NCBI RefSeq assembly: GCF_964194155.1
Contig: NC_135901.1
Span: 30,566,001-30,630,000, forward strand
Reading direction: 5' to 3'
From: Cetorhinus maximus
Lineage: Eukaryota
DNA length: 64,000 bases
This document shows, piece after piece, positions 1,371-58,445 of this stretch. Position 1 is the first letter of the stretch. Every line of letters starts with the position of its first letter. The position numbers were made by a program, and so were the translations under genes. Below the pieces are notes generated by a model. That model did not search any database. It was given only the letters and a program-made list of their open reading frames with translations, and was not told the origin of the DNA.

Positions 1371-2262
1371 CAAAACTAAAAATAAGAATAAATGAACTTA
1401 GTTACAGAACCATAAATAACATGCTAAAATGTCCCCTATCACAACATTAGACGCATCTATGTTCTTTATTACTATACTGTCCAGGGGGCAGAAATCTTAT
1501 TAAATAAAATAAGGGACAGTTCAACGATGGGGCTGGGGGAGGGTGTTGGTGGGATGCTGGTGACCATGAGAGAGGGTTGAGGGCGGGTGTCTGTGTTTCA
1601 ATATGAGAGGGGGTGGGGAAAAGGGGTCTTCAGACAATAATAGTGGGAGTGATGGAGTTTAAAATCAACTAAAACTTACAACTTATCTTGTTCAGTCACA
1701 ACATCATCATCTCTCTGCTGGCCAATTCACTCACTTACCATCCCACTCGAATCACTCAGACTCGCCCTGGAGACTCCTGGGATCAGTTTCCCACAGGCTG
1801 TCCTAGAAATGCAGGACAAAAGGCAAATTAAGGAGCAATCCCTTAAAATACAGGACAGTAAATCACCCGGAAATAGTCCCCTTAAATGTCAGCCATCTCT
1901 TGGGGAAACCACCCCTTTAATTGTGAACATTAGGAAAGAAACCATCCTTTTAGCCAGACAAATAAATGTGTCAAACTGAGGGAGCAAAGGATGTCAATGT
2001 CTTTAAGAGAGAGAGAGAGACCTGGGCCAACCTTTCCAGAGTCTGCACCCTCCCTGGATTCACTTCCTTTCCCTTCAGTTCCTGCAAGTCAACAATTTGC
2101 CCCCAGAATGAGAAAAGAAATGGAAAGGGGGAAACATTGATTTCCTCACAGCTGTTGCCCAGAGGAGGAAGTTTTAGTCTGAAGCTCATTATCCAACTTC
2201 CGCATTGTGACGTCCTGAATCAGCCAATAGGAATCACTCTGCTCCGCGGTGACGTCCTCGGG

Positions 2263-2360
2263 ATCCAAAACAAAAACAAAAATACCTGGAAAAACTCAGC
2301 AGGTCTGGCAGCATCGGCGGAGAGGAACAGTTAATGTTTCGAGTCCGAATGACCCTTCAA
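2263..2360 (-). mobile_element. Penelope-like element terminal fragment between two divergent ZNF promoters
   Basis: aaaacaaaaatacctggaaaaactcagcaggtctggcagcatc..ttcgagtccgaatgacccttcaa, the same terminus as the GIY-YIG-coding copies at 39026 and 61376. Confidence 0.85.
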
Positions 2361-2379
2361 TATAACCAGGGTTCCAGTC

Positions 2380-2703
2380 TGCAGGCCAGGCGCGCGGACA
2401 CGGGAGCCCCGCCCCCACCCATTGTTCCCCCTCCCTCCACCTCCTCCTCCTCCCCTCCTCCTCGAGCCCAAGGTTTCCAGGCAACCGGCTCCGGCCAGAG
2501 CGAGAAGCCACTCGGGAGACGGGAAGCTGCGCATGTGCGGGGGAACCCGCTCCTTCCCTTCAGGCTGAGGGACTGACCAATGGGGAAACTTGGAGGACCG
2601 GAAGGACTCCGGTCCTCCAGGCAATCAGAGCGCGGGCTTTGTGTGAATGAAGATTGAACTTCACACAGACTAAAACTTCCTCCTGTGTTCAACATCTGTG
2701 AGT
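2380..2703 (+). promoter_or_regulatory. ZNF cassette promoter and exon 1 (gene 1)
   Basis: CpG-rich; GC box, TGCGCATG (NRF1-like), CCAAT, ACCGGAAG (ETS). Donor CATCT|GTGAGT at 2698 pairs with acceptor ttttacag ending at 3660. Confidence 0.7.
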
Positions 2704-3029
2704 AAAACACTTTCTTTTCTCCGCCTTTCCATTTCTTTTTTAGTCTTGTAATAAAGTGCTGTAGCTACATTATATATTTCCAGTCATAGAGTCATTATGG
2801 CACAAAAGGACTCCATTCAGCAAATCGAGTCTGTGCCAACTCTCTGGAGAGCAATCCAGTCAGTCTCATTCACCCTCAGTATCTTCATTCTCTCTCCCAG
2901 AAGTTTCCTTCAAGTGCCCATCCAACTTCACTTTTAAATGATTGATCTTCTCTGCTTCCACCACCCCTTAGGCAGCAAGTTCCAGGTCATTACTGCGCGC
3001 TGTCTACATTTTCATTATGTTCTTTCACA

Positions 3030-3300
3030 GGGTCTGGGTGTCACTGGTTAGGCCAGCATTTTAAATGCCCATCCCTAATTGCCCTTGAGAAGGTGGTGTT
3101 GAGCGATCTTATTGAACCGCTGCAGTCCATGTGGTGGAGGTACAGCCACATTGCTTTTAGGGAAGAATGTCGAGGATTTTGACCCAACAACAGAGAAGGA
3201 CCAGCCGATATCTTTCCAAGTCAGTATGGTGAGTGGCTTGGAGGGGAACCTGCAAGTGGTGGTGGTGTTCCCATGCATCTGCTGCCCTTGTCCTACTCGG
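3030..3300 (-). mobile_element. LINE (L2/CR1 group) 3' end fragment
   Basis: Same tail (caccaccttctcaagggcaattagggatgggca) recurs at 19270-19580, 46442-46556 and 48695-48875. Confidence 0.7.
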
Positions 3301-4017
3301 AGGTAAATAAAGTTCTTCTTCACATTCCCCTTGTATCTTAAGCAAGTGATACAGTGCAGTATATGACACATTTTTCATGCTTTAAAATAGACACATATGT
3401 GGTCAACCACCTGCTTGAAGATTTTCAGGTCTCTGTGCCCTGGAGAGGAAGCGGTGAGCATGGATCTGTCAATCAGCATGAACCAGGAGAATTGGGAGGG
3501 TGTATATTAGGTAAAGCAGAGTGAGAATGGAGGGACAGTGTGTGGGACAAAGATTCACACCTTTTGGGGGGTGACAGAAGAAAGAATGTTCCACATGAAT
3601 TAGAATTCTCAGTTCTAAAATGTTATGATGTACTGATTTTTTACAAACTCTTTTTTACAGGATATCAGAAGGGGAGGATTTTCAGACAAAAATCTCAAAA
3701 CAAACATCATGTCAAGATCTGACAGTGTCGCTTGATTCATTGGAATGCGAATACTCTCAAGCTTTGAATCTGGAAGTAGAAATGTTTATCTGTTCTGTCT
3801 GCTTCAAAATATTTTAAATGTTATTTTGACTGGAAAAGCACCGAGACACACATACACCTAAGTGAGAATCTTACAGTGCACTGACTGTGGAAAGAGCTCT
3901 AATCAGTTAAAAAGCCTGAAAAAACATCACAGTGAACAGACACTGTACAAGTATTCCATGTGTGTTCGAGGCTTCAACTGATTGTCAAACCTTGAGATTC
4001 ACAAGGACAACCGCACG

Positions 4018-4524
4018 ATGGAGAAACCGTGGAAATGTGGAGACTGTGGGAAGCGATACCGATTCCCGTCTGAACTGGAAATTCATCATCGCATTCACAC
4101 TGGGGAGAGGCCTTTCACCTGCTCTGAATGTGGAAAGGGATTCACTGGGTCATCCCACCTGCTGACACACCAGCGGGTTCACACCGGGGAGAGACCATTC
4201 ACCTGTTCTGAGTGTGGGAAGGGATTCACTCAGTCACCCAACCTACTGACACACCAGCGAATTCACACTGGGGAGAGGCCGTTCACCTGTTCTGTGTGTG
4301 GGAACAAATTCAGTCAGTTATCCAGCCTGCAGACACACCAGCGAGTTCACACTGGGGAGAGGCCGTTCACCTGCTCTGAGTGTGGGAAAGGATTCACTCA
4401 GTTATCCAGCCTGCAGAAACACCAGAGAATTCACACTGGGGAGGGGCCATTCACCTGCTCTGTGTGTGGGAAGGGATTTGTTCATTTATCCAGCCTGCGG
4501 AGACACAAGCGAGTTCACGAGTGA
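4018..4524 (+). CDS. C2H2 zinc-finger protein, 6 fingers, no effector domain (gene 1)
   Basis: [10 protein letters not shown] start, six CxxC-x12-HxxxH units with TGERPF linkers, stop, conserved 3' UTR and AATAAA at ~4779. Confidence 0.85.
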
Positions 4525-4844
4525 TTCCAGGGGTTGGATTCTGCTGTTGTTGCTGCTGTTAATCACATCCAGGACTGAACCAGGTTCATTCTGACACTTG
4601 GTGAAGTCGGAGGGTCTCTTTCTGCTGGACTGGCCGGTCTCACGACTTTGCTTCCAGTGATGATCTTTGAACCTGGGAGTGCACGTTTCCACTGAATTGA
4701 TCTGCAACAGTGATGAAACACATTTCTTTTATCCTGGATGGTAAATTGTCTTTTTCCTACCACGACAGGTAGATCTAAAATAAATACATTTGTCTCTGTT
4801 CCATTGAGTCCACAGCTCAGGGCCAGGCCAGGCGGCTCAATTGG

Positions 4845-10440: not shown

Positions 10441-11673
10441 GGACAGAGAAAACAAGAGTGCCTTGAATCCTAGACGACACTTGGGTGGGACGCATGGGAA
10501 TACTGACTCCCTGTACTGGGGACGGAGCGTGGGAAGCCAATTGTTTGAGAGTTTTGACGTGGCTTGGGCAGGTACAGATGGTTCAATGACAGGTTTTGTA
10601 ATTGGTCCGTTCAAATGTTAGCTCAGCAATGATTGGGTTAAATCCTTCTCCATAGACTTTGTGATGTAAAAAAGTATCAGAAGGGATTCCCCGAGCACAG
10701 AGATTTGTAGAGGTTTTACATATTGCATTGACTGGTGCCATGGCATCTGGGGCAGAGCAGGGAGCATTTACGTGGAGATGGTGCTTCTACCCAGAGTGTA
10801 ATGGTAATGCTGCTGCACATTGATACGACTGCTCAGACATGAGCATGTGTCAGGTCTTATTTATAATGAATAAAATCTAACCATTGTCACCAATAAGGGT
10901 TATCACTGTGAATCATTTCAGAGTTTGGGAAAGGGGGTAAAGGGTTAATTGACACCCTGAACCACATTTTCTAACATCGCTGTCTCAAAAATAAAATCTC
11001 ATCTCCCCCTCTGGCTCCTTTGCCAATCACCTTAGAGGGACTCACTTTCTGTTAAAAAGCCTGCTAACCCCTCTCACCCACTTTCCTTAAAGTGCAGAAA
11101 TCTAATCATGAGAAGTCCAGAAAAATCAAATATTTTTACTGATAAAAGTTTATTAATGAAATTGAACATGGTTAAAAAAACAGAAAATTACTTGAGGATC
11201 AAAGCCAACCAGAGTAAAAGGATCTGCACAATGTTCTGGACCCAAATGGTTTCTCTTTAATTCATCTGTCCCCAGTTTGCTGCCCTCTTTGTGGAACACC
11301 TCCGCTCAGCCCACAGGCATGACCCTGACCTTCCAGTTGCTGCCATTATAATTCACCACCTTACTCTCATGCTCACATTTCTGTCCTCGGCCTGCTGCAA
11401 TGTTCCCGAGAAGCCCAACACAAGCTGGACAAGCAGCATTTACTACCCAGGATAAAATAAATGTCCTTCATCAGCTTTTGTGGATCATTTAAGTGGAAAT
11501 GTGCACTCCCAGGCTCAAAGAGCATCAGCCCACTAAAAGCAAAGTCATGAGACCAGCCAGTCCAGCAGTAAGAAACCCTCTGACCCTCCCATTTCACCTA
11601 GTGTCAGAATGAACATGGTTCAGTCCTGGATGTGATTAACAGCAGCAATAACAGCAGAATCCAACCCCTGTAA

Positions 11674-12348
11674 TCACTTGTGAACTCGCTGGTGTTTCAG
11701 CAGGTGTGGTGACTGAGTGAATCCCTTCCCACACATGGAGCAGATGAACGGCTTCTCCCCAGAGTGAATTCGTTGGTGTGTGAGGAGGTCAGATGAATCA
11801 CCGAACCCCTTCTGGCACTCAGAGCAGGTGAATGGCTTCTCTCCAGTATGAACTCACTGATGTTGCAGCAGGTGGGATAATTGAGTAAATCCCTTCCCAC
11901 ACTCGCAGCAGGTGAATGGCCTCTTCCCGGTGTGAACTCGCTGGTGTGTCCCCAGGTTGGATGCCGTGCTAAATCTCATCACACAGCGAGAACAGCTGAA
12001 TGGTCTTTCCTCAGTGTGAATGCACTGGTGGACCCTCAGAACTGCAGCACTTTTGAAGCCACTGCCACAGTCAGAGCATTTAAAGGGTCTCTCATTGGTG
12101 TGAGTGACATGGTGTCTCCGAAGGATGGATGACTGAGTGAATCGCTTCCCACACACAGACCAGGTAAATGGTCTCTCTCCGGTGTGAACTCGCTTGTGTG
12201 ACCGCTGGGTGTATAAATCTCTGCATCCCTTCTCACACACAAAGCAGGTGAATGGCCTCTCCCCAGTGTGACTGCGTCGATGAATCTCCAGCTTCGATGG
12301 GGTTTTGAATCCCATCCCACAGTCCCCACATTCCTAGGGTTTCTCCAT
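11674..12348 (-). pseudogene. C2H2 ZNF gene 2, 8 finger units, disrupted
   Basis: Starts MEKP*ECGDC (TAG at codon 5). A second in-frame TGA at 11854-11856 is followed by two more fingers ending HQRVHK*, then the conserved 3' UTR. Acceptor at 12711. Confidence 0.85.
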
Positions 12349-13639
12349 GATGTGGATGCCCTTGTGTCTTCCCAGGTCCGACGGTCAGTTGAACCCTTGT
12401 CCTCACACAGAACATATATGATGTCTCTCCTCACTGTGAATGGTGTGATGTTTTTTCAACTATAACTGGTTAAAGCTCTTTCGACAGTCAGTGCACTGGA
12501 ACACTTTCACTCGGGTGTGTGTGTGTCTTGCTGCTGTTCCAGTCACACGGATCTTTAGTACCTTTTGAAGCAGACAGAACAGGGAAACATTTCTCCTTCC
12601 ACATTGAAAAGCCAATGATATTCAGGTCCTGGTAAATCAAGTGACTCTGTCAGATTTGACATGCAATTTGGGTTGTGACTTCTGTCTGCAATTCCTCCCC
12701 TTCTAGTATCCTGTAAAAGGAGTTTACAAATAGCATCAATGTAAGTACAGTTTAGAAATTCAGAACAGAGAAGTCTAGTTTCAGTGTATCATTCCTTCCT
12801 TTCTATTCCCCCAAAGTCCATTCCAGACACATTCTCCCCATTCTCACTCAGCTGTACCGAATATACACCCTCCCAATTCTCCAGAAGGAGCGATCAATGC
12901 TGGTCAACAGATCCATGGTCACTGCTTCATGTCGTGGACACAGATATGAAAATGTTCATGCAGGCTGTAAATATGGAGTGAGATGTGAGGATGAACTTTG
13001 TTTCGGAAGCGACTAGTCATGACCTGGAACTCGCTGCCTGGGCGGGTGGAGGTAGCAGAGGTGATCAATGATTTCAAATTGAAATTGGACAGGTACTTGA
13101 AGGGAATAAACTTGCAGAGGAATGGGGATAGAGGGGGAATGGGACTGACTGGATTGCTGCACAGAGAATCGGCATGGACTCAAGTTGCCAAATGGACTCC
13201 TTCTAAGCTGTAATGACTCTATGACAGGAAATATAAAACGTAGCTACAGTACTATATTACAAGACTATAAATAATATCAATGTACTTTATTACAGAATGA
13301 TAATATATCTAGTATGTACCATATAACGACACAAGACATATCTCTGTCCTTTTATTAATTTATTGTCCCTTTAAATGTCAGCCATCTCCTGGGGAAACCA
13401 TCCCTTTAATTGTGAACATTAGGAAAGAGACCATCCTTTTAGCCAGACAAATAAATATGTCAAGCTGAGGGAGCAAAGGATGTCAATGTCTTTAAGAGAG
13501 AGAGAGAGAGACCTGGGCCAACCTTTCCAGAGTCTGCACCCTCCCTGGATTCACTTCCTTTCCCTTCAGTTCCTGCAAATCAACAATTTCCCCCCAGAAT
13601 GAGAAAAGAAATGGAAAGGGGGAGAAAAGAAAGTGTTTT

Positions 13640-14126
13640 ACTCACAGATGTTGGACACAGGAGGAAGTTTTAGTCTGTGTGAAGCTCAATCCTCAAAGCC
13701 CGCGCTCTGATTGGCTGGAGGACTAGAGTCCTCCGGTCCTCCAAGTCTTCCCATTAGCTAATCATTCAGCATGAAGACAATGGGGCGAAGGAGAACCTCT
13801 GACTCTCATGACGATGTGAGCGACTGGCCAATGGGAAACGCCATTCACCGCACACGCGGAGCTTCCCCTTTCCCTCGGACGTGCGCAGTCCCGGGCCGTG
13901 CGCCCGCGCGGCAGATAGAGCGGTTTCCCCAGCGCGGGGCGTTGTGGGAGCTACGGCCACCATTACTCAAACAGAGCCCAGTCTCCAAACGCCTGGGACT
14001 GGGATGGAAAGTGGGGGTGTGGGGCGTAGTGACCCCGCCCTGACACAAAGTACAAGTCACTGGATTTGATTGTGACACCCCCTTAGCAAAACAGTTTGTT
14101 ATCCTCAGGTGTAAAGATTTAGACAC
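13640..14126 (-). promoter_or_regulatory. ZNF cassette promoter and exon 1 (gene 2)
   Basis: Donor at 13645; CCAAT, ZNF143-like gctcccacaacgccccgcg and GC box; homologous to 29770-30290. Confidence 0.7.
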
Positions 14127-38540: not shown

Positions 38541-38559
38541 AACTCTGGACCCCATGAAG

Positions 38560-44022: not shown

Positions 44023-44865
44023 TCACTTGTGAACTCGCTGGTGTCTCAGCAGGTGGCACGACTGAGTGAATCCTTTCCCACACTCAGAGCAGCTGAATGG
44101 CCTCTCCACAGAGTGAAGTCGCTGGTGTGTCCGCAAGTTGGATGAATCATTGAATTCCTTCCCACACTCAGAGCAGGTGAATGGCCTCTCCCCAGTGTGA
44201 ACTCGCTGGTGTCTCCGGAGGTTGGATGAATTAATGAATCCCGTCCCACACATGGAGCAGGTGAACGGCCTCTCCCTAGTGTGAATGAGATGGTGAGTCA
44301 GCAGGTTTGGTAAGTGAGTGAATCCCTTCCCACACTCAGAGCAGGAGAATGGCCTCTCCCCTGTGTGAACTCGCTGGTGTCTCCGCAGGATGGATGAATC
44401 ACCGAATCCCTTCCCACACTCAGAGCAGGTGAATGGCCTCTCCCCAGCGTGAACTCGCCGGTGTCTCCACAGACTGGACGATGAACTAAACCTCTTTGCA
44501 CAGTGAGAACAGCTGAATGGTCTCTCCTCAGTGTGAATGCGCTGGTGGAACATCAGTTCCCGAGAGCTTTTGAAGCCACTCCCACAGTCAGAGCATTTAA
44601 AGGGTCTCTCATTGGTGTGAGTGACATGGTGTGTCAGCAGGCTGGATGACTGAGTGAATCGCTGCCCACACACGGTGCAGGTGAATGGCCTCTCCCCCGT
44701 GTGAACTCGCTCGTGTGTCAGCAGGGCAGATAAATCACTGAATCCCTTCCCACACACACAACAGATGAATGGCCTCTCCCCAGTGTGACTGCGTCGATGA
44801 ACCTCCAGCTTTGAAGGGAATCTGAATCCCTTCCCACAGTCCCCACATTTCCACGGTTTCTCCAT
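44023..44865 (-). CDS. C2H2 zinc-finger protein, 10 fingers (gene 6)
   Basis: Intact 280-aa [19 protein letters not shown]. Acceptor at 45212; its own exon 1 is absent. Confidence 0.85.
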
Positions 44866-45480
44866 GATGTAGGTTTTCTTGTATCTCTCCAGGCTGAATG
44901 ATCAGTTGAAGCCTTGTCCTCACACAGGACACATGTACAGTCTCTCATCACTGTGAATGCTTCAATGTTTTTTTCAACTGAGTAACTAGTTAAAGCTCTT
45001 TCCACAGTCTGGAACACTCTCACTGACGCATGTGTGTGTGTCTTCCCACTGTTCCAGTCACACTGATCATTAAAATGTTTTGAAGCAGGCAGAACAAGGA
45101 AACATTTCTCCCTGATGATATTCGGGTCCCGATAAATGAAGCCACTCTGTCAGATTTTGACATGAAATTTGGTTTGAGACTTCAGTCTGCAAATCATCCC
45201 TTTCTCATATCCTGTAAAAGGAGTTTACAAATAGCGTTACTGTCAGTACAGGATAGAAATTCAGAACATACAAGTCTAGTTTCAGTGTACCATTCCTTCC
45301 TCTCTCATTCCCCCAGTGTCTATTCCGGACACACTCTCTCCTTTCTCACTCAGCTGTACCGAATATACATCCTGCCAATTCTCCAGAAGAAGCGATTCAT
45401 GCTGATTGACAGATCCATGGTCATTGCTTCATGTCCCGGAGACAGACATGTAAATCTTGATGCAGAGTGTAAATATGGAG

Positions 45481-45669
45481 GAAGAGGGGAAGCTGCGCAT
45501 GTGCGGGGGAGAGCCCGCCCCTTCCCGTCATGCGGAGGGGATGACCAATGGTAAGAGTTGGAGGACCGGAAGGCCTCTGCTCCTCTAGCCAATCAGTGCG
45601 CGGGCTTTGTCTGAATGAAGATTGAGCTTCACAGACGAAAACTTCCTCCTGTGTCCAACATCTGTGAGT
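45481..45669 (+). promoter_or_regulatory. ZNF cassette core promoter and exon 1 (gene 7)
   Basis: TGCGCATG, GC box, two CCAAT, ACCGGAAG. Donor 45664, acceptor ending 46120. Confidence 0.7.
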
Positions 45670-46441
45670 AAAACACTTTCTTTTCTCCCCTTTTCCATTT
45701 CTTTTCTCATTCTGGGGGCAAATTGGTGACTTGCAGGAACTGAAGGGAAAGGAAATGAATCCAGGGAGGGTCTGGAAAGGTTGGCCCAGGTCTCTCTCTC
45801 TCAAAGACATTGACATCCTTTGCTCCCTCAGCTTGATACATTTATTTATCTGGCTAAAAGGATGGTCTCTTTCCTCATGTTCACAATTAAAGGGGTGGTT
45901 TTCCCAGCAGATGGCTGACATTTAATGGGACAGTAAATTAATATAGGACAGTGATATGTCTCGTGCCGTTACATGATGCATATTTTATGTTTGTGTGGGA
46001 CAGACAATGACAGTTTTTATGGAACAACAGAGGAAAGAATGTTCCACAGTAATCAGAAATGCCTGCTCTGAATTTCTATCCTGAACTGACAGTCATGCAT
46101 TTTGTAAACTTCTTTTACAGGACATTAGAAGAGGAGGGTTTACAATCAGAAATCTCAAACCAAACGTCATGTCAAGATCTGACAGAGTCAATCGATTCAT
46201 CAGGACCTGAATTTCATCGGTAATTAAATCTAGAAGGAGAAATGTTTGTCTACTCTGTCTGCTTCAAAAGATTTGAAATGTCGGTATGACTGCAAAAGCA
46301 CCGAGACACACATGCCCGAGTGAGAGTGTTCCAGTGCACTAACTGGAAAGAGCTTTACCCAGTGACACAACTTGAAAAATCATCACACCATTCACAGCAG
46401 GGAGAGACCATACACGTGTTCTGTGTGTGGATGAGCCTTCG

Positions 46442-46556
46442 GCTTCAGCAGTTCAAGGAGGCAGCTCACCCACCACATTCTGAAGGGCAGTGAGGGATAG
46501 GCAATAAATGCTGGCCGAGGCAGCGACGCCCACATCCCATCAATGAATAAAAAAAA
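46442..46556 (+). mobile_element. LINE-tail insertion in the 5' leader of gene 7
   Basis: cagcagttcaag..caccacattctgaagggca..gggcaataaatgctggcc..aatgaataaaaaaaa interrupts fossil finger 3. Confidence 0.85.
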
Positions 46557-46593
46557 TTGTTGAACCTGGAGAGACACAAAGGGCACCCGCACC

Positions 46594-47352
46594 ATGGCGA
46601 AACCATGGAAATGTGTGAACTGTGGGAAAGGATACAGATCCCCATCTCAGCTGGAAATTCACCAACACAGTCACACCGGGGAGAGGCCATTCACCTGCTT
46701 AGAGTGTGGGAAGGGATTCACTCATTCATCCTCCCTGCTGAGACACCAGCGCATCCACACCGGGGAGAGGCCGTTCACCTGCTCTGAGTGTGGGAAGGCA
46801 TTCAGTACTTCATTTGACCTGGTGACGCACCAGCGAGTTCACACAGGGGAGAGGCCATTCACCTGCTCTGAGTGTGGGAAGGGATTCACTCAGTCATCTC
46901 ACTTGCAGACACACCAGCGAGTTCACTCTGGGGGGAGGCCAGTCATCTGCTCTGAGTGTGGGAAGGAATTCACTGGCTTGTCACACCTGCAGGTACACCA
47001 GCGAGTTCACACTGGGGACAAGCCCTTCACCTGCTCTGATTGTGGGAAGAGATTCACTCAGTTATGTAACCTGCAGACACACCAACGGGTTCACACTGGA
47101 GAAAGGCCATTCACCTGCTCTCAGTGTGGGAAGAGATTCACTCAGTCATCCACCCTGCTGACACACCAGCGGGTTCACACTGGGGAGAGACCGTTCACCT
47201 GCTTTGAGTGTGGAAATGGATTTGCTCATTCATCGCACCTGCTGAGACACCAGCGAATTCACACTGGGGAGAGGCCATTCACCTGCTCTGAGTGTGGCAA
47301 GGGATTCACTCGGTCAACCTACCTGCTGAGTCACCAGCGAGTTCACAAGTGA
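46594..47352 (+). CDS. C2H2 zinc-finger protein, 9 fingers (gene 7)
   Basis: accATGG start, intact 252-aa ORF, conserved 3' UTR with AATAAA at ~47621. Confidence 0.9.
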
Positions 47353-47799
47353 TTGCGGGGATTGGATTCTGCTGTTATTGCTGCTGTTAATCACATCCAG
47401 GACTGAACCATGTTCATTCTGACACTTGGTGAAGTGGGAGGGTCGGAGGGTTTCTTTCTGCTGGACTGGACGGTCTCACGACTTTGCTTCCAGTGGGCTG
47501 ATGCTCTTTGAGCCTGGGAGTGCACATTTCCACTGAAATGATCCACAAAAGCTGATGAAGTACATTTATTTTATCCTGGACAGTAAATAGTGTTTTTCCG
47601 ACCATGACAGGTGGATCTAAAATAAATACATTTGTCTCTGTTCCATTGAGTCTACAGCACAGGGCCAGTCGGCTCAATTGGTCTCTGTCAGTATTTATGC
47701 TCCACATGAGCCTCCACCCACCCCTCTTCATCTCCCCCATCAGCATATCCTTGTATTCTTTTCTCCCTCATGTATGTATCTAGCTTTGCTTTAAATGTA

Positions 47800-47906
47800 G
47801 CAGGTCTGGCAGCATCTTCTCCACCGATGCTGCCAGACCTGCTGAGTTTTTCCAGGTAATTCTGTTTTTGTTTTGGATTTCCAGCATCCGCAGTAGCTTT
47901 TTGTTT
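47800..47906 (+). mobile_element. 107-bp Penelope fold-back with 15-bp TSD
   Basis: Hairpin gcaggtctggcagcatc-loop-gatgctgccagacctgc. tttgctttaaatgta at 47785-47799 and 47907-47921. Absent at the paralogous site ~6260. Confidence 0.88.
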
Positions 47907-50559
47907 TTTGCTTTAAATGTATTCATGCTATTCACCTCAACCACTTGCTGTGGTAGTGAGTTCCACACTCTCACCGTTCGCTGAGTAATGAGGTTTCTCA
48001 TGAAATCCTGATTGGATTATTTAACCCCTTCATCATCTTAAAGGCTTACATCAAATCACCCTTCAGCCTTCTCTTTTCTAGAGAAAAGCAGCCCCACCCT
48101 TTCCTGAGGATTAAATGCTCTCAGTTCTGGTATTATTCTTGTGAATCTTTGTTGCCCCTTCTCCAGTGCCTCTATTTCCTTTTTCTAAATGGAGGTCACA
48201 AATGTTTACAGTGCTCCCAGTGTAGTCTAACCATGGTTCGAAACAAGTTGAACATAACCTCCCTGCTTTTCAATTCTATCCCTCGAGAATGGAACCCTAT
48301 ATCTGGGCCCCACACTTTAGGAAGATGTGAAGTTCTTAGAGAGGGTGCAGAGGAGATTTACGAGAATGGCACCAGGGATGATGGACTTCAGTTAGTTGGA
48401 GAGACTGGAGCAGCTGAAATTGTTCTTTTTGGATCACAGATTCATTAGGGTAGAGAAGGAGTCCATTCAGCCCATCGTGTTCACGCCGGCTCACTGCAGA
48501 GCAAACCAGTCAGTCCCATGGCCTTGTTCTATCCCTGTCTCCCTGAAAATTTATTTCCCTCAAGTGCCCATCCAATTTCCTTTTGAAACCGTTCATTGTC
48601 TCTGCTTCCACCCACCTCGCAGACAGTGAGTTCCAGGTCATCGCCACTCACTGTGTAAAAACGTTCCTCAAATCCCCCCCATATCTTTTCATTTTCATTC
48701 TTTCATGGGGTTGTGGGTGTCACTGGCTGGGCCAGCATTTATTGCAATCCCTAATTGCCCTTGAGAAGGTGGTGTTGAGCTGCATTCTTGAACCGCTGCA
48801 GTCCATGTGGTGTAGGTACACCCACAGTGGTTAGGGAGGAATTCCAGGATTTGACCCAGCGACAGTGAAGATATACCCACAGTGATGTAGATATATCTCC
48901 TGTACAAAACTTTTAATCTGTGTCCGCCTTGTCCTTGTACCATCAGCAAATGGGAACAGCTTTTCTCTGTCCTCCTTATCTAAACCTGTCATAATAATCT
49001 TGTACACCTCTATCAAATCTCCCCTCAACCTCCTTTGCTCCAAGGAGAACAACCCCAGCTTCTCCAACCTAACCTTGTGGTTAAAATCCCTCATCCCTGG
49101 AACCATTCTGATAAATCTCCTCTCCATCCTCTCATCGACCCTCACATCCTTCCTAAAGTGTGGTGACCAGAACTAGACTCAATACTCTAATTGTGGCCTA
49201 ACCAGAGTTTTATAAAGGTTCAGCATAACTTCCCTGCTCTTGTTCTCAATCCCTCTGTTTCTGAAGCACAAGATCCCATGTGCTTTGCTAATTCCTCTCT
49301 CACTCTGTCCTGCCACCTTCAATGACCTCTGCACATGAATCCCCTGCTCACTCTTTAGAACTGTTTTATTTACATCTATATTTCCTCTCTGCTAAATATC
49401 ATCGCCTCAGTCTTCTCTGTGTTAAATTCCATCTGCCACTTCAGAGAATGTTAAGGGAAGCTTTAAGTGTTAAACTAAACATTCAGAGAAAAGGAGGCAC
49501 TGCTTCCTTTAATATGTCACCCACAATTGAAGATGATCCCCTCCCTTTCAACGTATATGAGGCTCATAGAGCACAGAAGGAGGCCATTCGGCCCATCATG
49601 CTGTCTGCTGCGAATATCTAAGTTCATAATTCATACATTTTCAAAAATAACTTTTAGTTTGGGGATTGGAATGTAGCTCAATGGAAACTCTGGGTTGAGA
49701 AACTGTTGAATACAACTCTGATGGAAATCCAAATCAAAGAAGCCTGGGCTAATTACAATTAGAATGTGACCTATGTTTATTCAGTAGGTTAATGTTGATA
49801 GTGAGAACACTTAAACAATGGATGATCCATTGTGGATTTTTCTTTTTATTTTCTCATTGAAGGCAGTTTCAGTCGGCAGGAAGTGTGGGACCAGGAGCTG
49901 TGAACCAGCTGTGGGATGAGAAGCCAAGAGGGTCATTAGGAACCAACGTGTTCCTCATGTTTAAATTCCACAGCAACAAGGTAGTGAAACTTCCGCTTGA
50001 ACTGAGAAGTCCACAGCTTTGAGGCCTTAAAGGAAAGTTGCAGTGTTTCTTAGCCTAAAGCTGATGGAAGGACCCCCATAAAGTCTTGGAGCTTGGAGAA
50101 TAGCTGGAATACTGAGGAAAATTAAAGTGAATTCTGGAGAGCTTTGACATCCCTTTGGGATGGTCCCAGGAACGGAAGCGAACGAACCTTCAAGATATTG
50201 TTAAGTATAAGTTCTCTTGTGGAGAAGTTAAAAAGTAGAACTGGGTTTAAAGCATAAATCTTTATAAACTATAGCATTAAGTTCGTCGTGCTGGTTTTTA
50301 ATATTCTTTTGTTTTATATATACAGTAAATTTTGGTTTTGTTTGTAAATGTGGTGTAATTCTTTCAGTTATCACTGGGTGTTCGAATTTCTCTTTAAACG
50401 TTAACCTGACCGGGATTGGAACAATCGGCACAAACAATATTTCAAAACAAACCAAAGAGGACAAAATATGATTTTCCTTATTTTGCACAAAGCATTATTA
50501 CATTTTAAGACATTCCTCTTCTAAGATCCCCAGTAATTTCTTAGTTCAAGCATTTATTT

Positions 50560-52784
50560 TTATGAAACAATCTGATAATTGATGACTAAAAATGGAATGA
50601 ATTGTAGTCCCTTCGAAAGCAGGAGGGCTATTGCCCAGCACAGAAGCTAATTTGGGATTTCTCCAGTAGACCAATCGAAAGGGACTTTTCCCTCCAACCA
50701 TCTGAAGTGAATTCTTTCCATGAATCATCCATGTCAGTGCAGTTGTCAACTTGCAGTTTGACTGATCAGCTAAGATTTTCTGCAGCATTTCATCGATCAC
50801 AGCATGATTCCTTTCACAGAGTCCATTGCTGAAAGGATTTTCAGCTGCGGTGTTCATGACCATAATGTTCATGTTTTCACACACGTCTCTAAACTCGTCA
50901 TTAGCAAATTTCCCCTCCATTATCAGTCAGAAACTTAGCTGGTAACCCAGGTCCAGTCCCTATCCATTTCTCCATGACTTGGTCTATAATCTCCCTTTTG
51001 CCCTTGCCATGTATTATTGAGAAAGACTAAATCGGTTACCATGTCTATAAAGTGTAGAATGAAAATATTTCTGTCTTTGTCCCATCCCTTTAGATCCATG
51101 GCAACGACCTGGTTAAAGTCATGTGCCAAGGGAAGGTTTACAATAGGATGTGACAGCGTCCTCCCATACTTTTTACACATTTCACACTTTGCTCTAATCT
51201 CCTCCATGAGCCTCGTATACTCTTCACCAACCACCCCTGCATCTTTTAGCAGGATTTGTTATCTTTGACAGGGTGAGCAAATTGCCTGTTTAGTTTTAAA
51301 ATAATTTGTTTTTTTCTCTCTGATTCTTATCATTGATGCCTTTAATCCTTCTCAAACACTCTGATCAGAAACATCAGGTATTGTTAAGGGGAGACGATGA
51401 TGTCCTGATTGAGTATGCTGCAGATCCACTGACTTTCCATGTCCAGTTGCATTTGTGCCATTTTTGTGGAAGGTTTACTCAACAGTAAGGGTATCACACT
51501 GGAGTACACACCAGTCCTGATAAAGTGGCTGACTCCAGCTATTTTGCAAAAATCCCCACTCTTTTTAGTGACATCAATGTGTTCACATCACCAAAGACAA
51601 GGCAAACTTTCATACTCCTTGTGTCAATCCTCATTACAAGGTGAATCTGGATAACATTTTCACCAACTGATCCACATGCTGACGAGGAGCAGCCACTGTC
51701 TAACACAGCACAGTTGAATGAGTCTGTGATGAACACAATCATCACTGGACCAAAGCTCCTTGTGACCTCTACAATTCCTTCAGAGTGATCATCATCATCA
51801 TCTTCAGCCTCAGAATTCTCTGTATCATGTGTCACTTCGAAGACCCTGATTTTCCACTTTGGGAAGGTCATCACATAATGATATTTTAAGTCAGACCTGA
51901 AACACCTGTTATTGTTCCTTGGTCATTCCTGGGGTTCATTCACCTATTAGTGCTGTTCCAGTCCCGTCTCTTGTTGTGATATCCAGATCTGCTAAAAATG
52001 TTTTCACCCTCATTTGAAACCTGTCAAAGTCCATCTATACTTCATAGGCATCCAATAGATCATCTTTCTTGTAAATCTCATCAATGAACCTGAACAGAAG
52101 ATCCAAACCTTCTTCAGTGACGGGCATCCAGCTCACTAAATATTTTGCTTCTGATTTTACTTTTGTTGGGAAGTGACAATGCCAAGACTAGACCTTGTTT
52201 CCTCCTTGGTAGGGACGTAACCCGTGTCCACATCTCCACTTCATTCTTCCACTGGTCGTGTGGCTCAGACTCCGAGAACATCGGCGGGTAATCAGACCCT
52301 GACAATTTCCATAACATAAAAGCAAATTACTGCAGATGCTGGAAATCTGACACAAAAACAGAAAGGGTTGGAAAAACTCAACATTCAAGCAGCATCTGTG
52401 GAGAGAGAAACAGAGTTAACGTTTTGAGTCCATATGACCCATCTTCAGAGCAATTCCCAGACAATTTCCACTTGTTTTCAGCCATTTCGCACAAAAGCTA
52501 CTCGGATTGTAAGCTTCTATCTGAAATTTTATTTTCCTTTAGTTTCCAACATCCACCATTAGACAAGTACTCTCTGTTACCATGTTATAATCCTGACAGC
52601 CTGATTGTGAAGGAAGAAACTGGAGCCAGTCTTTGCTTTGTACAGATTTATTCACAGTGTGAAACATTACAGGTACATACCTCCTGAATACACCCCATTA
52701 TGTGTCAGTAGTGTCTCTTTATATGTGCTCAAGTAACCATCCAATAAATGTCTTGCATCTGTATATATTTTACCTCAATTGACA
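50560..52784 (-). mobile_element. Decayed Ty1/Copia LTR retrotransposon, GalEa-like (5' LTR, PBS, gag, protease, integrase; RT lost)
   Basis: gag YPPMFSE..WKNEVEMW..KQG..LALSLP, protease AVLDSGCS, integrase CxxC..DFNQVVAMDLK..FID..PFSNGLCERNH, in gag-PR-IN order. ~200-bp LTR 52583-52784 (TGTCA..TAACA, with TATAAA and AATAAA) followed by PBS TGGTAACAGAG. A Penelope end is inserted at ~52315-52450. Confidence 0.82.
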
Positions 52785-52814
52785 CAATTAACTCCCACAG
52801 TCCGAGCAGGCTGG

Positions 52815-54293
52815 TTAACCGAGTGAATTCCTTCCCACATCGAGAGCGGGTGAATGGTCTTTTCCAGTGTGAACCTGTTGATGTGTCAGCAGGTGGGATA
52901 ATTGAGCGAATCCCTTCCCCCACACAGTGCAGGTGAACGGCCTCTCCCCGGTGTGAACTACCTGGTGTGCCACTAGGTGGGATGACTGAGTGAATCCCTT
53001 CCCACACACAGAGCAGGTGAATGGCTTCTCCCTGGTGTGAGTTACCTGGTGTGCCACTAGGTGCGCAGACTGAGTGAATCCCTTCCCACACACAGAGCAG
53101 GTGAACGGCCTCTCCCTGGTGTGAACTACCTTGTGTGCCACTAGGTGGGATGAATGAGTGAATCCCTTCCCACACTCGGAGCAGGTGAAAGGCCTCTCCC
53201 TGGTGTGAACTACCTGGTGTGCCACTAGATGGGATGAATGAGTGAATCCCTTCCCACACTCGGAGCAGGTGAATGGCTTCTCCCTGGTGTGAACTATCTG
53301 GTGTGCCACTAGGTGGGATGACTGAGTGAATCCCTTCCCACACTCAGAGCAGATGAATGGTTTCTCCCTGGTGTGAACTGCCTGGTGTGCCACGAGATGG
53401 GATGACTGAGTGAATCCCTTCCCACAAACAGAGCAGGTGAACGGCCTCTCCTCAGTGTGAACTACCTGGTGTGCCAGTAGGTGTGCAGACTGAGTGAATC
53501 CCTTCCCACACTCAGTGCAGGTAAACGACCTCTCCCGGGTGTGAACTGCCTGGTGTGCCACGAGGTGGGATGACTGAATGAATCCCTTCCCACACTCAGA
53601 GCAGGAGAACGGCTTCTCCCTGGTGTGAGCAACTTGGTGAGTCACTAGGTGGGATGACTGAGTGAATCCCTTCCCACAAATAGAGCAGGTGAACAGCCTC
53701 TCCCCAGTGTGAACTACCTGGTGTACCAGTAGGTGGGATGACTGAGTGAATTCTTTCCCACACTCAGAGCAGGTGAATGGCTTCTCCCTGGTGTGAACTA
53801 CCTGGTGTGCCACTAGGTGGGATGAATGAGTGAATCCTTTCCCACACACAGAGCAGGTGAGCAGCCTCTCCCTGGTGTGAGCTACCTGGTGTGCCAGTAA
53901 GTGTAATGGCTTACTGAATCCCTTCCCACACACAGAACAGGTGAGTGGCCTCTCCTTGGTGTGAGCCATCTGGTGTACCACTAGGTGGGATGACTGAGTG
54001 AATCCTTTCCCACACACACAGCAGGTGAGCAGCCTCTCCCTGGTGTGAGCGACCTGGTGTGCCACTAGGTGTGAGGAATGAGTGAATCATTTCCTCCACA
54101 CAGAGCAGTTGAGCGGCCTCTCCCTGGTGTGAGCGACCTGGTGTGCCACTAGGTGTGAGGAATGAGTGAATCCCTTCCCACACACAGGCCAGGTGAATGG
54201 CCTCTCCCTGGTGTGAATGTGTCGATGAGTTTCCAGTACAGATGTGGTTTGGAATCCCTTCCCACCATCCCCACATTTCCACAGTTTCTCCAT
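52815..54293 (-). pseudogene. C2H2 ZNF gene 8: homogenised array of ~17 units (13 intact), with an early in-frame stop
   Basis: ATG at 54293 (MEKLWKC), three damaged fingers, TGA at 54087-54089, then an open frame to 52815 with repeated (Q/H)SSHLVAH helices. The 3' end is frameshifted next to the Copia LTR. Confidence 0.8.
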
Positions 54294-55942
54294 GGTGCGT
54301 GTGCCCTTGTGTATCTCCACGTCTGTTGATCAATTGGTGCCTTGTCCACACACAGAACACATGTGTGGTGTCTCCCCTTTGTAAACGGTGTGATGTTTTT
54401 TCAGTCTGTGTAACTGCTTAAAGCTCTTTCCACAGTCAGTGCACTTGAACACTCTCACTCGGGTGTGTGTGTCTCTGTGCTTTTCCAATCACACTGATGT
54501 GTGAAACATTTTGAAGCAGTCAGAACAGACAATAATTTCTCCTTCTAGATTCAAAGGCCAATGATATTCAGGTCCTGATGAATCGAGTGACTCTGGCAGA
54601 TGTGAACGTGAATTTTGGTTTGAGAATTTCTAGCACAGACGGGTTCCGGAATCCCTTCCCACAGTCCCCACATTTCCATGGTTTCTCCATGGTGTGGGTG
54701 TCCTTATGTCTCTCTGTGTTTGACGATCAGTTGAAGCCTCATACATGCACAGAACACATGTACAGTCTCTCCCCGCTGTGAATGGTGTGATTTTTTTTTC
54801 AGGCTGTGTAACTGGTTAAAACTCTTTCCACAGTCAGTGCACTGGAACACTCTCACTCGGGTGTGTGTGTCTCGGTGCTTTTCCAATCACACCAATGTTT
54901 AGAATCTTTCCCCACAGACAGAACAGACAAACGTTTCTCCACATTCAAAGGTCAATTATGTTCGGGTCCTGATGAATTGAATGACACTGTGAGGGCTTGA
55001 TGTGATTTTTGGTTTGAGATTTCTGTCTGCAAATCCTCCCCCTCTAATATCCTGCAAAAGGAGTTTACTGTCAGTACAGGATAGAAATTCAGAATCGACA
55101 ATTCTAATTTCTATGAAACATTCTTTCCTCTCCTGTTCCCCAAAACCTGTAAATCTCTGTCCCACACATTCTCCCTCCAATCTCACTCTGCTGTACCTAA
55201 TGTACAACCTCTCAATTCTCCTGAAGGTGCAAATTCATCCCGATTGACAGATTCATGTTCAGCACTGTCAGTCCAGCAATCAGAGCTGTGAGCCATATGC
55301 ATGAACACATTACAGGAGTACAAATGTTGTAATATATAATATGCATTGCATGATTAGAGGTATGGGGGGATGCAAGAAACAACAGAATTTAGGAGTGAGT
55401 GATCATGACCTGAAATTCAGTGCGTCTGTGGATGGTGGAACTGGAGGTGATCATTGATTTCAGAATGAAATTCGATGGACACTTGATAGAAATACACTTG
55501 AAGGGGAACGGGGATATCGAAGGGGAATGGGACTGACTGGATTCTTCCACAGAGAGTCAGCATGGACTTGAGTTGCTGAATTAACTCCTTCTGTGCCGTA
55601 ATGACCCTATGACTGGAAATATATACACAGCTACAGTCCTATATTATACTATAGACATATCTCTGTCCTATATTAATTTACTGGCCCCTTAAATGTCAGC
55701 TATCTCCTGGGGAAACCCCTTTAATTGTGAACATTAGGAAAGAGACCATCTGTTTAGCCAGACAAATAAATGTGTCAAGCTGAGGGAGCAAAGGATGTCA
55801 ATGTCTTGAAGAGAGAGAGAGAGAGAGACCTGGGCCAACCTTTCCAGAGTCTGCACCCTCCCTGGATTCACTTCCTTTCCCTTCAGTTCCTGCAAGTAAA
55901 CAATTTAGAAAAGAAATGGAAAGGGTGAGAAAAGAGTGTTTT

Positions 55943-56195
55943 ACTCACAGATGTTGGACACAGGAAGAAGTTTTAATCTGTGTGAAGCTCAATCTTCATG
56001 CACACAAAGCCCGCGCTTTGATTGGCTGAAGGACAAGAGTCCTTCCGGTCCTCCAACCCTTCCCATTGGCCAGCTCCTGAGCAAGAAGGGAAGGGGCGGG
56101 CTCTCCCCTACACATGCGCAGCTTCTCCTCTCCCGAGTTCTTCGAGCGGCTTCTCGCTCTGGCTGGAGCCGTCAGCCGGTTGCCTGGAAACCTTA
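55943..56195 (-). promoter_or_regulatory. ZNF cassette promoter and exon 1 (gene 8)
   Basis: Donor 55948, acceptor 55052; TGCGCATG, GC box, two CCAAT, ACCGGAAG; homologous to 2469-2700. Confidence 0.7.
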
Positions 56196-56395
56196 ACAGA
56201 AACAGAAACACCTGGAAAAACTCAGCAGGTCCGGCAGCATCGACGGAGGAGAGCACAGTTGACGTCTCGAGTCCTCATGACCCTTCAACAGAACAGTTGA
56301 AAACTGTGGTTTTGGGACTCGAAACGTCAACTGATTTCTTCTCCACCGATGCTGCCAGACCGGCTGAGTTTTTCCAGGTAATTCTGTTTTTGTTT
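56195..56395. mobile_element. Two inverted Penelope termini at the axis of the gene 8/gene 9 divergent pair
   Basis: 56195-56295 and 56315-56395 are mutually inverted; no TSD. The right flank starts mid exon 1 of gene 9 (cagactaaaac..catct|gtgagt at 56428). Confidence 0.85.
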
Positions 56396-57582
56396 CAGAC
56401 TAAAACTTCCTCCTGTGTCCAACATCTGTGAGTAAAACACTTTCTTTTCTCCCCCTTTCCATTTCTTTTCTCATTCTGGGGGAAATTGTTGACTTGCAGG
56501 AACTGAAGGGAAAGGAAGTGAATCCAGGGAAGGTGCAGACTCTGGAAAGGTTGGCCCAGGTCTCTCTCTCTCTCTCTTAAAGACATTGACATCCTTTGCT
56601 CTCTCAGCTTGACACATTTATTTTTCTTGCTAAAATGATGGTCTCTTTGCTAATGTTCAGAGTCCAGTGTTGTTTAATGGTTCATATTAAATGTATTATT
56701 TCTGGTTCTCTAATAAAATACATTTATTATTTTTTCTAGTCCTGTAATATATTACTGTAGCTAGGTTATTTATTTCCAGCCATAGATTCATTACGAATAC
56801 AGGAGTCCATTCAGCAACTCAAATCCCTGTCGAGTCTCTGTAGAGCAATCCAGTCAGTCCTATTCCCTTTCTATATCCCCGTTCCCTTGCATGTTTATTT
56901 CCTTCAAGTTATCACTCAATTTCTTTTTGAAATCGTTCATCATCTCTGCTTCCACCAGTCAGTGAGTTCCAGGTCTCGCAGCCTACAGGTAGATTTTCAG
57001 GACTTTGTGTCCTGCACTGGAACCACTGAGCATGGATCAATCAATCAGCATGAATTGACACCTTCAGGAGTATTGGGAGGGTGTATATTAGGTACAGCAG
57101 AGTAGGAATGGAGGGAGAGTGTGTGGGACAGATTTACAGCTTTTGGGTGAGAGAGGAAAGAATGTTCCATAGAAACTAGAATTGTCTGTTCTGAATTTCT
57201 ATAATTGACTGACGGTGATGACTTTTGTAAACTCCTTTTACAGAATATTAGAAGTTGCAGACAGAAATCTCAAATCAAACGTCACATCAGGATCTGACAG
57301 AGTCACTCAATTCATCAGGAGCTGAATATCAATGGCTTTTGAATCTAGAAGGAGAAATGTTTGTCTGTTCTGTCTGCTTCCGATGGTTTTGAAATCAGGG
57401 TTATTGGAAATGCACTGAGACAGACACATCTGAGTGAGAGTGTTCCAGTGCACTGACTGTGGAAAGAGCTTTGACCAGTTACGCAGCCTGACAAAAAATC
57501 ACGAGAGGGACTGTACACATGCTCTGTGTGTGGACTGCTCAGTTGATCATTGAATCTGGGGCGACCTAAGGACACCCACACA

Positions 57583-58445
57583 ATGGAGAAACTGTGGAAA
57601 TGACGGGACTGTGGGAAGGGATTCATATCCCCATCAAAGCTGGAAATTCATCGACGCAGCCACACTGGAGAGAGGCTGTTCACCTGCTACATGTGTGGGG
57701 AGGGATTCACTCATTCATCCCACCTGATGAGACACCAGCGAGTTCACACCGGGGAGAGACCATTCACCTGCTCTGACTGTGGGAAGGGATTCACTGAGTC
57801 GTCTCACTTGCGGATACACCAGTGAGTTCACACCAGGGAGAGTCTGTTCATCTGCACCATGTGTGGGAAACGATTCACTCAGTCATCCAGTCTGCTGAGA
57901 CACCATGTCACTCACACTGATGAGAGACCCTTTAAATGTTCGAATGTGGGAGTAGCTTCAAAAGCTGTCGGGAACTGATGTTCCACCAGCGTTTTCACAC
58001 TGAGGAGAGACCGTTCAGCTGCTCTCTCCGCACAAAGAGGTTGAGAAGTTCATCCAACCTGCAGGAACACCAGCGACTGCACACCAGGGGGAGACCATTC
58101 ACCTGCTCTGAGTGTGGGAAAGGATTCATTCAGTTGTCCAAACTGCAGATGCACCAGCGAGTTCACACTGGGTAGAGGCCATTTACCTGCTCCAATAAGA
58201 GAAGGGATTTGCTTATTTATCCAGCCTACTGAGATACCAGCGAGCTCACAGTGGGGAGAGGCCATTCACCTGCTCGGAGCATGGGAAGGTATTCACATGA
58301 TTGTCCCACCTGTTGACACATCAGCAAGTTCACACTGGAGAGAGGCCATTCACCTGCACCGTGTGTGGGCAGCGATTCCCTCAGTCATCCAGCTGACACA
58401 CCATGTCACTCACACCAATGAGAGACCCTTTAAATGTGCTGACTG
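57583..58445 (+). pseudogene. C2H2 ZNF gene 9, multiply disrupted
   Basis: MEKLWK* followed by further stops and frameshifts; promoter missing; 3' end fused to the CR1 flank module at ~58447. Confidence 0.88.

What the first reader, a model, noticed from the sequence alone, without database searches (positions are those of the whole stretch)
1880..58445. Cluster of effector-less C2H2 ZNF genes expanded as one complete promoter-intron-array-UTR cassette
Seen: about ten copies share promoter motifs, exon 1, the donor CATCT|GTGAG, intron blocks, the acceptor ttt(t/g)cag|G, a fossil leader, an MEKPWKC-type start and a 3' UTR. Finger number (6-17) and recognition helices differ, about half the copies are dead, and no KRAB, SCAN or BTB coding exon is visible. 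Known: tetrapod KRAB-ZNF and cyprinid FiNZ-ZNF clusters evolve by birth-and-death and are linked to TE silencing. Inference: this may be an independent, fingers-only analogue in cartilaginous fish, acting without a fused repressor domain.
Basis: partly seen in the sequence, partly recalled or inferred. Interest (0 to 1): 0.75.

Follow-up and report, generated by a model that had tools for sequence, protein, structure and literature searches.

The report
Shark finger-only zinc-finger gene cluster
This is one slice of a shark chromosome carrying over a thousand related genes whose proteins consist only of DNA-gripping zinc fingers; they likely police repeats or transposons without a built-in silencing module (targets untested), and they share an intron stretch that was probably copied between neighbours.

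Summary
Observation largely confirmed. The window holds 8 finger arrays (5 open frames, 3 dead) plus 2 remnants. They belong to a family with at least 1,217 exact start motifs; 85 of the first 100 listed lie on one 65-Mb chromosome. Fingers-only is well supported. Probable RNA contigs from relatives join exon 1 straight to the array exon. All 37 of 37 intact neighbours have a strong Kozak ATG behind an in-frame stop in the same exon. Exon 1, leader and intron show no coding constraint, and the genome has one KRAB hit, on another contig. Finger frameworks are under purifying selection (dN/dS about 0.3), and contact residues change about twice the neutral rate. Corrections: copies spread in 5-22 kb multi-gene segments, often head-to-head, not as a fixed cassette. 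The acceptor is TTTTACAG|G. About two thirds of copies nearby are broken. Added: a roughly 275-nt block after the donor is 96% identical across lineages whose leaders are 18% diverged, best explained by local gene conversion. Transposon targeting is untested. Shark ZNF expansions are already counted in print, and this scan reported the family before on other DNA. New variant of a known kind.

The parts
1876..2181 (-). 5' module (variant exon 1, donor and conserved intron block) of the head-to-head partner of gene A; its broken array lies left of the window
2561..4800 (+). Gene A: exon 1 to 2697, donor block cut after 42 nt, acceptor 3660|3661, fossil leader 3661-4017, ORF 4018-4524 (168 aa, 6 fingers, intact), AATAAA at 4779
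11438..13773 (-). Gene B, dead (stop at codon 5, second stop in the array); full exon 1, block 13365-13645, acceptor at 12710
18773..19572 (-). Remnant: 3' UTR fragment and intron piece, no array
20493..23796 (+). Gene D: partial block, acceptor 22288, ORF 22651-23673 (340 aa, 10 canonical fingers, degenerate first finger, frameshifted tail)
30150..33376 (+). Gene E, intact: exon 1 to 30284, acceptor 32154, ORF 32511-33098 (195 aa, 6 canonical fingers), AATAAA at 33367
30285..30565 (+). Reference copy of the homogenised first-intron block (about 275 nt, non-coding, no Rfam hit, no fold signal)
43900..45465 (-). Gene F: intact ORF 44023-44865 (280 aa, 10 fingers), acceptor 45211; no exon 1 or block of its own, abuts the promoter of G
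   Evidence: probable RNA contigs of relatives stop fitting at 45210-45211
45480..47630 (+). Gene G, intact: exon 1 to 45663, block 45664-45931, acceptor 46121, ORF 46594-47352 (252 aa, 9 fingers); leader carries an inserted repeat
   Evidence: joint 45663->46121 GT..AG
52815..56082 (-). Gene H, dead: duplicated leader, both starts hit stops or a frameshift; 13 canonical fingers (16 linkers), mostly QSSHLVA-type helices; head-to-head with I
56396..58445 (+). Gene I, dead (stop at codon 7, frameshifts); short exon 1, block 56428-56659, acceptor 57244
42217..63916 (.). Segment of about 22 kb (genes F, G, H, I and repeats) with an inverted 88-94% copy at C24:29.18-29.20 Mb

Best explanation
These are two-exon genes of a chromosome-wide shark family that encode bare arrays of C2H2 fingers, turn over by segmental duplication and loss, and likely act as sequence-specific binders of repeats or transposons that repress by occupying their sites or by recruiting a co-repressor through the fingers themselves. 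Shown: a non-coding exon 1 is spliced to one exon holding a dead leader (an old linker and three fossil fingers), a Kozak ATG, the array and the 3' UTR; frameworks are constrained and contact residues diversify; copies move in multi-gene segments and sometimes swap promoters at the exon 1/block boundary. Inferred: the first-intron block was homogenised by gene conversion inside the dense cluster (sampled at 27-30.8 Mb) about 2% divergence ago, probably on top of weaker constraint. Untested: the DNA targets and any co-repressor.
For: Splice: the joint 45663->46121 (GT..AG) is seen in 3 of 4 probable-RNA contig sets, and paralog forms of the same joint cover the fourth. No in-frame upstream coding: 37 of 37 intact genes have A(-3)/G(+4) at the ATG and an in-frame stop 10-34 codons upstream in the same exon. 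dN/dS is 0.7-1.5 in all six frames of the block and 0.75-1.15 in linker and fossil fingers. Other subfamilies on the chromosome start at MEG/MEA within about 12 residues of finger 1. One KRAB hit genome-wide, on C34; the 150 scored SCAN hits (of 4,987 candidates) are dispersed and none is on C24. Selection: finger 1 framework dN/dS 0.30, contact positions 1.27. On a fixed tree, contact 0-fold sites have 8.5 changes per site, leader 4.3 and framework 1.8. 32% of copies are intact, against 2% or less simulated for neutral decay at 5% divergence. Age: the same leader, ending at the same TSV residues, appears in predicted proteins of Pristiophorus and Heterodontus, and a homologous leader in Carcharodon. 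Block: private change is flat at 0.017-0.029 whatever the lineage age, while leader (0.019/0.063/0.095) and framework (0.009/0.014/0.045) scale with age in intact genes. Copies outside the cluster are 3-11% (median 6.8%) from the cluster consensus and differ from it by majority at 5 positions. The TTT variant occurs in 0 of 81 scorable cluster blocks (14 unscorable), although leader lineages inside and outside are intermingled. Analogy: ZNF and retroelement counts correlate across metazoans (PMC10547256).
Against: No binding or knockdown data; nothing here links a finger array to a transposon. Positive selection rests on 6-8 sites of finger 1, and the ratio of 1.27 (71 N, 24 S) was not tested against 1; the 1.84 for later fingers compares non-orthologous fingers. 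The RNA evidence is contigs 'guessed RNA' from related organisms at 85% likeness or more. It shows family splicing, not expression of these copies, and 132 further joints were not displayed. Leaders of intact genes carry a median of 3 upstream ATGs and exon 1 an 8-aa uORF, so translation may be weak. Neutral decay over the last 2% alone would leave 8-21% intact, and framework dN/dS rises to 0.5-0.65 in recent pairs, so much of the cluster may now be relaxed. Against pure conversion: rare block variants are still shared by related copies (30% vs 3% expected); head-to-head partners and near neighbours are no more alike; intact genes are slightly closer to the consensus (0.021 vs 0.026, p=0.046); outside blocks are still about twice as conserved as leaders; and monophyly of the outside copies is not rejected (p-AU 0.1).
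Confidence: 0.45

Rival explanations
1. The family is mainly a self-amplifying by-product of a repeat-rich, duplication-prone chromosome; only a minority of copies ever matter and there is no dedicated anti-transposon role.
For: 71 of 115 copies broken; segments duplicate together with their repeats; constraint is weaker on recent branches.
Against: Framework dN/dS 0.3 and about twofold excess change at contact residues; intact share far above neutral decay for 10-13% deep lineages; the leader architecture is kept across shark superorders.
Confidence: 0.2
2. The proteins are finger-only regulators of ordinary promoters, of each other (for example through the shared intron block or the shared 3' UTR core), or of RNA, rather than of transposons.
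For: All copies share regulatory-looking DNA: the block, and a 21-nt UTR core with 1,003 exact genome matches that is kept across subfamilies. A primate precedent exists for a shared first-intron element driving ZNF genes (MER57E3, PMC9122532, section read).
Against: Fast change at DNA-contact positions fits moving targets better than fixed promoters; no target data either way.
Confidence: 0.2
3. The intron block is a per-gene cis-element held by purifying selection alone, with no need for conversion.
For: Non-CpG divergence 0.027 against 0.091 in the leader; sharp dips inside the block in several intact pairs; internal-branch ratio 0.10; intact copies closer to consensus.
Against: In young intact genes the block changes at the neutral leader rate (0.020 vs 0.019) and does not scale with age as the framework does; no correlation with either flank, while the flanks correlate with each other; cluster-specific fixed differences.
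Confidence: 0.25
4. A hidden effector exists: an alternative exon (for example the AG at +75 of the block) or a separate gene supplies a KRAB- or FiNZ-like domain.
For: The block has a conserved pyrimidine tract and TTGCAG|G; the linker frame is open from the acceptor in 3 MEA-type copies; database models in other sharks translate the linker, one fused to histone H2A.
Against: An in-frame stop precedes the ATG in 37 of 37 intact genes; no coding constraint; the block peptide finds no longer protein and one 62-aa unnamed singleton among 1.84 billion; in the database models the linker frame mostly ends at the fossil finger. A partner encoded elsewhere is not excluded.
Confidence: 0.1

Closest known systems
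Cyprinid FiNZ-ZNF family on zebrafish Chr 4q (Wells et al. 2023, PMC10547256; abstract, passages and parts of two supplementary files read)
   Same: Hundreds of two-exon tandem C2H2 genes concentrated on one chromosome; change focused on DNA-contact residues; repeat-rich surroundings.
   Different: FiNZ exon 1 encodes a conserved acidic domain; here exon 1 is non-coding and the ORF starts six residues before finger 1. TE derepression was shown for FiNZ and is untested here.
Tetrapod KRAB-ZNF clusters (PMC2604467 and PMC5363842, passages read)
   Same: C-X2-C-X12-H-X3-H fingers with TGERP-type linkers, one array exon, segmental birth-and-death, many pseudogenes, finger gain and loss.
   Different: No KRAB or SCAN exon; TRIM28-type recruitment through a fused domain is not possible.
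Poly-ZF genes with no annotated N-terminal domain (Emerson and Thomas 2009, PMC2604467, passages read)
   Same: Same category; that paper leaves open whether such genes are truly finger-only or mis-annotated.
   Different: Here the question is answered at DNA and splice level for a very large family.
MER57E3 first-intron element of primate ZNF genes (PMC9122532, abstract and one results section read)
   Same: A shared promoter-proximal intronic element across clustered ZNF genes.
   Different: No transposon origin or activity is shown for the shark block; its pattern points to conversion.

Membership tests
Tandem C2H2 (Kruppel-type) poly-ZF genes | Five or more tandem C-X2-C-X12-H-X3-H fingers with conserved linkers (PF00096, PF13465) | tested here: met
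Tandem C2H2 (Kruppel-type) poly-ZF genes | Clustered birth-and-death with constrained framework and diversifying -1/2/3/6 positions | tested here: met
   (formal codon-model test not run)
KRAB-ZNF | KRAB-A exon upstream, spliced in frame | tested here: not met
   one KRAB hit in the genome, on C34; in-frame stop before the ATG in 37 of 37
KRAB-ZNF | TRIM28/SETDB1-dependent silencing | not testable with these tools
   needs experiment
SCAN-ZNF | SCAN domain in the same transcript | tested here: not met
   no SCAN among the Pfam hits shown for the window peptides; none of 150 scored genome hits on C24, of 4,987 candidates
BTB-ZNF | N-terminal BTB domain | tested here: not met
   ORFs F and G are fingers from residue 7 to the stop; no genome-wide BTB search was run
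FiNZ-ZNF | Coding first exon with the acidic FiNZ domain | tested here: not met
   exon 1 holds only an 8-aa uORF and no frame into the array; no FiNZ profile was available to scan
FiNZ-ZNF | Expression at genome activation and TE derepression on knockdown | not testable with these tools
   contigs show presence of family transcripts only
Transposon-like mobile cassette | Fixed ends shared by copies (terminal repeats, target-site duplications) | tested here: not met
   homology between copies runs on for variable 5-22 kb segments including neighbours and repeats; no dedicated TSD scan was made
Structured intronic ncRNA (the block) | Rfam match or folding better than shuffles | tested here: not met
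   0 Rfam hits at gathering threshold; z +0.99

The most novel reading that the evidence does not exclude
Sharks run a chromosome-scale, KRAB-free transposon surveillance system of over a thousand bare finger arrays, at least as old as the split of shark superorders, that silence through a finger-bound co-repressor not yet known. Within the dense cluster they are kept on one shared control switch by gene conversion of a 275-nt intron element, while promoters and arrays are shuffled around it.
Probability: 0.2. Interest if true: 0.8.

Novelty: new variant of a known kind. Interest (0 to 1): 0.45.

Why it matters
Whether large finger-only ZNF families are real or an annotation gap has been left open (PMC2604467). 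Here the gene structure rules out a fused effector through the used acceptor, in a lineage that lacks the KRAB family. If these proteins repress transposons, the repressor domain is dispensable or supplied in trans, which bears on what ZNF arrays did before KRAB and FiNZ were acquired. The shared exon 1, Kozak start and intron block also make the family experimentally reachable with one reagent, as was done for FiNZ.

Tried and rejected
Coding exon in the intron block: rejected (dN/dS near 1 in six frames, variable CT run; no longer protein; one unnamed 62-aa singleton). Block as structured RNA: no support. Conserved stops in the fossil leader as read-through or editing sites: their retention (51-60 of 77) is about the median 3-mer retention of 0.74, so they are simply inherited. 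A micro-exon at 3430-3454 in gene A: not shared by the other copies. MEA-type copies with an open linker: no shared coding exon upstream in 3 of 3 compared (output cut, read in part). Histone H2A fusion in a sawshark model (P0121): treated as a probable annotation read-through, not followed. Recent-pair test for conversion: uninformative alone, because finger frameworks also diverge at the leader rate in those pairs; replaced by the age-binned test. Promoter flipping between head-to-head blocks: partners are not more alike (0.039 vs 0.043). GC-biased conversion: no W>S excess among shared variants. A whole-array protein search was swamped by tetrapod ZNFs; the best identity listed was a ray (68%) and a white-shark protein had 64%. 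The 16-gene region comparison was too small and was superseded. A second RNA layout with a DNA control gave no result, so use of the block's AG in RNA is open. Literature: searches found no paper describing this shark family; the search found none on the intron block; one search was empty. The library lacks most subscription papers, and three supplementary files of PMC10547256 were not searched.
Full report
What is there. A six-frame scan finds eight finger arrays in the window. Self-comparison shows each with the same parts in order. A, D, E, F and G have open frames of 168-340 aa with 6-10 canonical fingers; B, H and I are dead. A 5' module at 1876-2181 belongs to a head-to-head partner whose array lies left of the window, and 18773-19572 is a scrap. 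The acceptor is TTTTACAG|GAT rather than ttt(t/g)cag|G. F has no exon 1 of its own, and A and D have truncated donor blocks, so not all copies are complete.

Size of the family. The window is C24:30.57-30.63 Mb of a 4.0-Gb genome. A donor 24-mer has 311 exact matches, a block 20-mer 379, a start 20-mer 1,217 and a UTR 21-mer 1,003, each with 0 in the reversed control. Only the first 100 places are listed per search; 85-100 of them lie on C24. Donor and block become dense from about 26.7 Mb. Samples at 32, 33, 34.5 and 44 Mb had no family parts and 63 Mb had no array; samples at 37, 40, 48, 53 and 58 Mb held related subfamilies. Relatives of the leader are found in predicted proteins of Pristiophorus, Heterodontus and Carcharodon, which places the DNA in sharks. 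I infer the architecture predates the split of shark superorders. In 864 kb of the dense cluster, 37 of 115 acceptor-anchored copies are intact, 71 broken and 7 lack a start; intact genes across all five sampled segments have 4-24 fingers. 54 of 103 donors lie in head-to-head pairs, mostly about 450 bp apart. Duplicated units are segments: window 42217-63916 (F, G, H, I and repeats) has an inverted 88-94% copy at 29.18-29.20 Mb, and 25592-38859 another copy.

Is it really effector-less? Contigs of four probable RNA runs from two related organisms join 45663 to 46121 across GT..AG (3 of 4 runs), or show the same joint with paralog letters (covering the fourth). Several contigs stop fitting exactly at the acceptor of F. 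The runs are guessed to be RNA, are not this individual, and 132 joints were not shown. At DNA level, 37 of 37 intact genes have A at -3 and G at +4 of the ATG and an in-frame stop 10-34 codons upstream inside the same exon. No upstream exon spliced to this acceptor can therefore add a domain. Exon 1 holds only an 8-aa uORF. The leader is an old linker plus three fossil fingers with dN/dS 0.84-0.91. Other subfamilies start at MEG/MEA at the position where this one has LEG. The genome has one KRAB hit, on C34 (PRDM9 is my recalled guess, not checked), in line with the reported absence of KRAB families in cartilaginous fishes (PMC8455134, passages). SCAN hits are dispersed, none of 150 scored on C24; I read them as retroelement gag, from recall.

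Selection on the arrays. Finger 1 is homologous in all copies. In 34 intact genes its framework has dN/dS 0.30 and positions -1, 2, 3 and 6 have 1.27; 339 later fingers give 0.33 and 1.84 (not orthologous) with 162 contact signatures. On a fixed tree, non-CpG 0-fold contact sites change 8.5 times per site (6 sites), the leader 4.3 and the framework 1.8. Simulated neutral decay leaves 2% or fewer ORFs open at 5% divergence but 8-21% at 2%; lineages are 10-13% deep. Long-term selection is therefore clear. Recent branches look partly relaxed (framework ratio 0.5-0.65).

The intron block. The first roughly 275 nt after the donor are 93-98% identical in 25-nt bins over the core among 44 copies. Pairwise medians among 77 genes are 0.043 for the block, 0.181 for the leader, 0.208 for the next intron part and 0.080 for the UTR. 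CpG content does not explain it (0.027 vs 0.091 at non-CpG sites). It is not coding and not a recognisable RNA. Its divergence is flat across lineage age and gene status, whereas the constrained finger framework scales with age. It does not track either flank, though the flanks track each other. Copies outside the dense cluster have equally old leaders, but their blocks are a median 6.8% from the cluster consensus with five majority differences (these copies were mostly picked by an exact 20-mer, which biases them towards similarity). The TTT variant is absent from 81 scorable cluster blocks. This points to local homogenisation by gene conversion about 2% ago. Against conversion alone: rare variants still follow the genealogy, neighbours are not more alike, intact genes are slightly closer to the consensus, outside blocks remain about twice as conserved as leaders, and a clade of outside copies is not rejected (p-AU 0.1). 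I put conversion, with some background constraint, at about 0.7. Two of 17 recent pairs share block, intron and leader but have different promoters, so the block also marks a promoter-swap point.

How it most likely works. Shown: spliced two-exon structure at family level, finger-only ORF, constrained scaffold, variable contacts, segmental turnover. Inferred: each protein reads a DNA sequence, and the moving targets are probably repeats, by analogy with the ZNF-retroelement correlation and the FiNZ knockdown (PMC10547256). With no effector domain, repression would be steric or through finger contacts. Finger-dependent chromatin aggregation and partly NuRD-independent repression are reported for ZNF512B (PMC11602157, abstract only), which is a loose precedent. 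None of this was tested here.

Comparison and novelty. It works like KRAB-ZNF and FiNZ-ZNF clusters but fails the defining domain test for each. Large shark ZNF counts are already in print: 475 to 3,586 ORFs with five or more fingers in seven chondrichthyan assemblies (PMC10547256 supplement). Poly-ZF genes without N-terminal domains were noted as unresolved in PMC2604467. My searches found no description of this family's structure or of the block. This scan had already reported the family on other stretches of this genome, with conflicting readings of the conserved 5' part; the age-binned and outside-copy tests here favour conversion. Verdict: real, a new variant of a known kind, function untested; interest 0.45.

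Noticed in passing
window:33120-33170 and all copies; core right after the stop codon: A 21-nt 3' UTR core is kept almost unchanged across all subfamilies, from 0.3 to 58 Mb and on C22, where the rest of the UTR differs; 1,003 exact matches. It contains two DRACH-type motifs (recalled m6A consensus); function unknown.
   Followed up: partly
P0121: A sawshark predicted protein joins histone H2A to this family's leader; probably a read-through model, but it hints that histone genes sit among these ZNF genes there.
   Followed up: no
window:45211-45560: Gene F has an intact 10-finger ORF but no exon 1; its intron remnant runs straight into the promoter of G, so it could only be read as an unspliced antisense product of that promoter.
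   Followed up: partly
window:52815-54290; paralogs at C24:29.03 and 29.19 Mb: The H lineage has internally amplified near-identical QSSHLVA fingers; two paralogs have open 23-finger ORFs while the window copy is dead.
   Followed up: partly
window:4808-6004, 35222-35965, 59857-60911; 39539-40818, 61776-62804; 50546-51922: Intergenic DNA is full of retroelement fragments: RVT_1 (E 1e-27) and GIY-YIG (E 6e-5) by Pfam, Penelope- and CR1-like by recall; an integrase-like broken frame near 50.5-51.9 kb had no Pfam hit.
   Followed up: partly
window:27400-28250: An 850-bp inverted repeat, 92.5% self-complementary, between D and E.
   Followed up: no
window:8399-8938 and 10433-10949: A roughly 540-bp direct duplication inside a multi-copy repeat that recurs throughout the cluster.
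   Followed up: no
G000:C34:9123034-9123144: The only KRAB-domain hit in the genome; likely PRDM9-type, not examined.
   Followed up: no
L140 (12.95 Mb) and L086/L085 (0.39 Mb): Two copies 12.5 Mb apart are 99.6% identical in the leader and identical in the aligned block: a very recent long-range duplication or an assembly duplicate.
   Followed up: no
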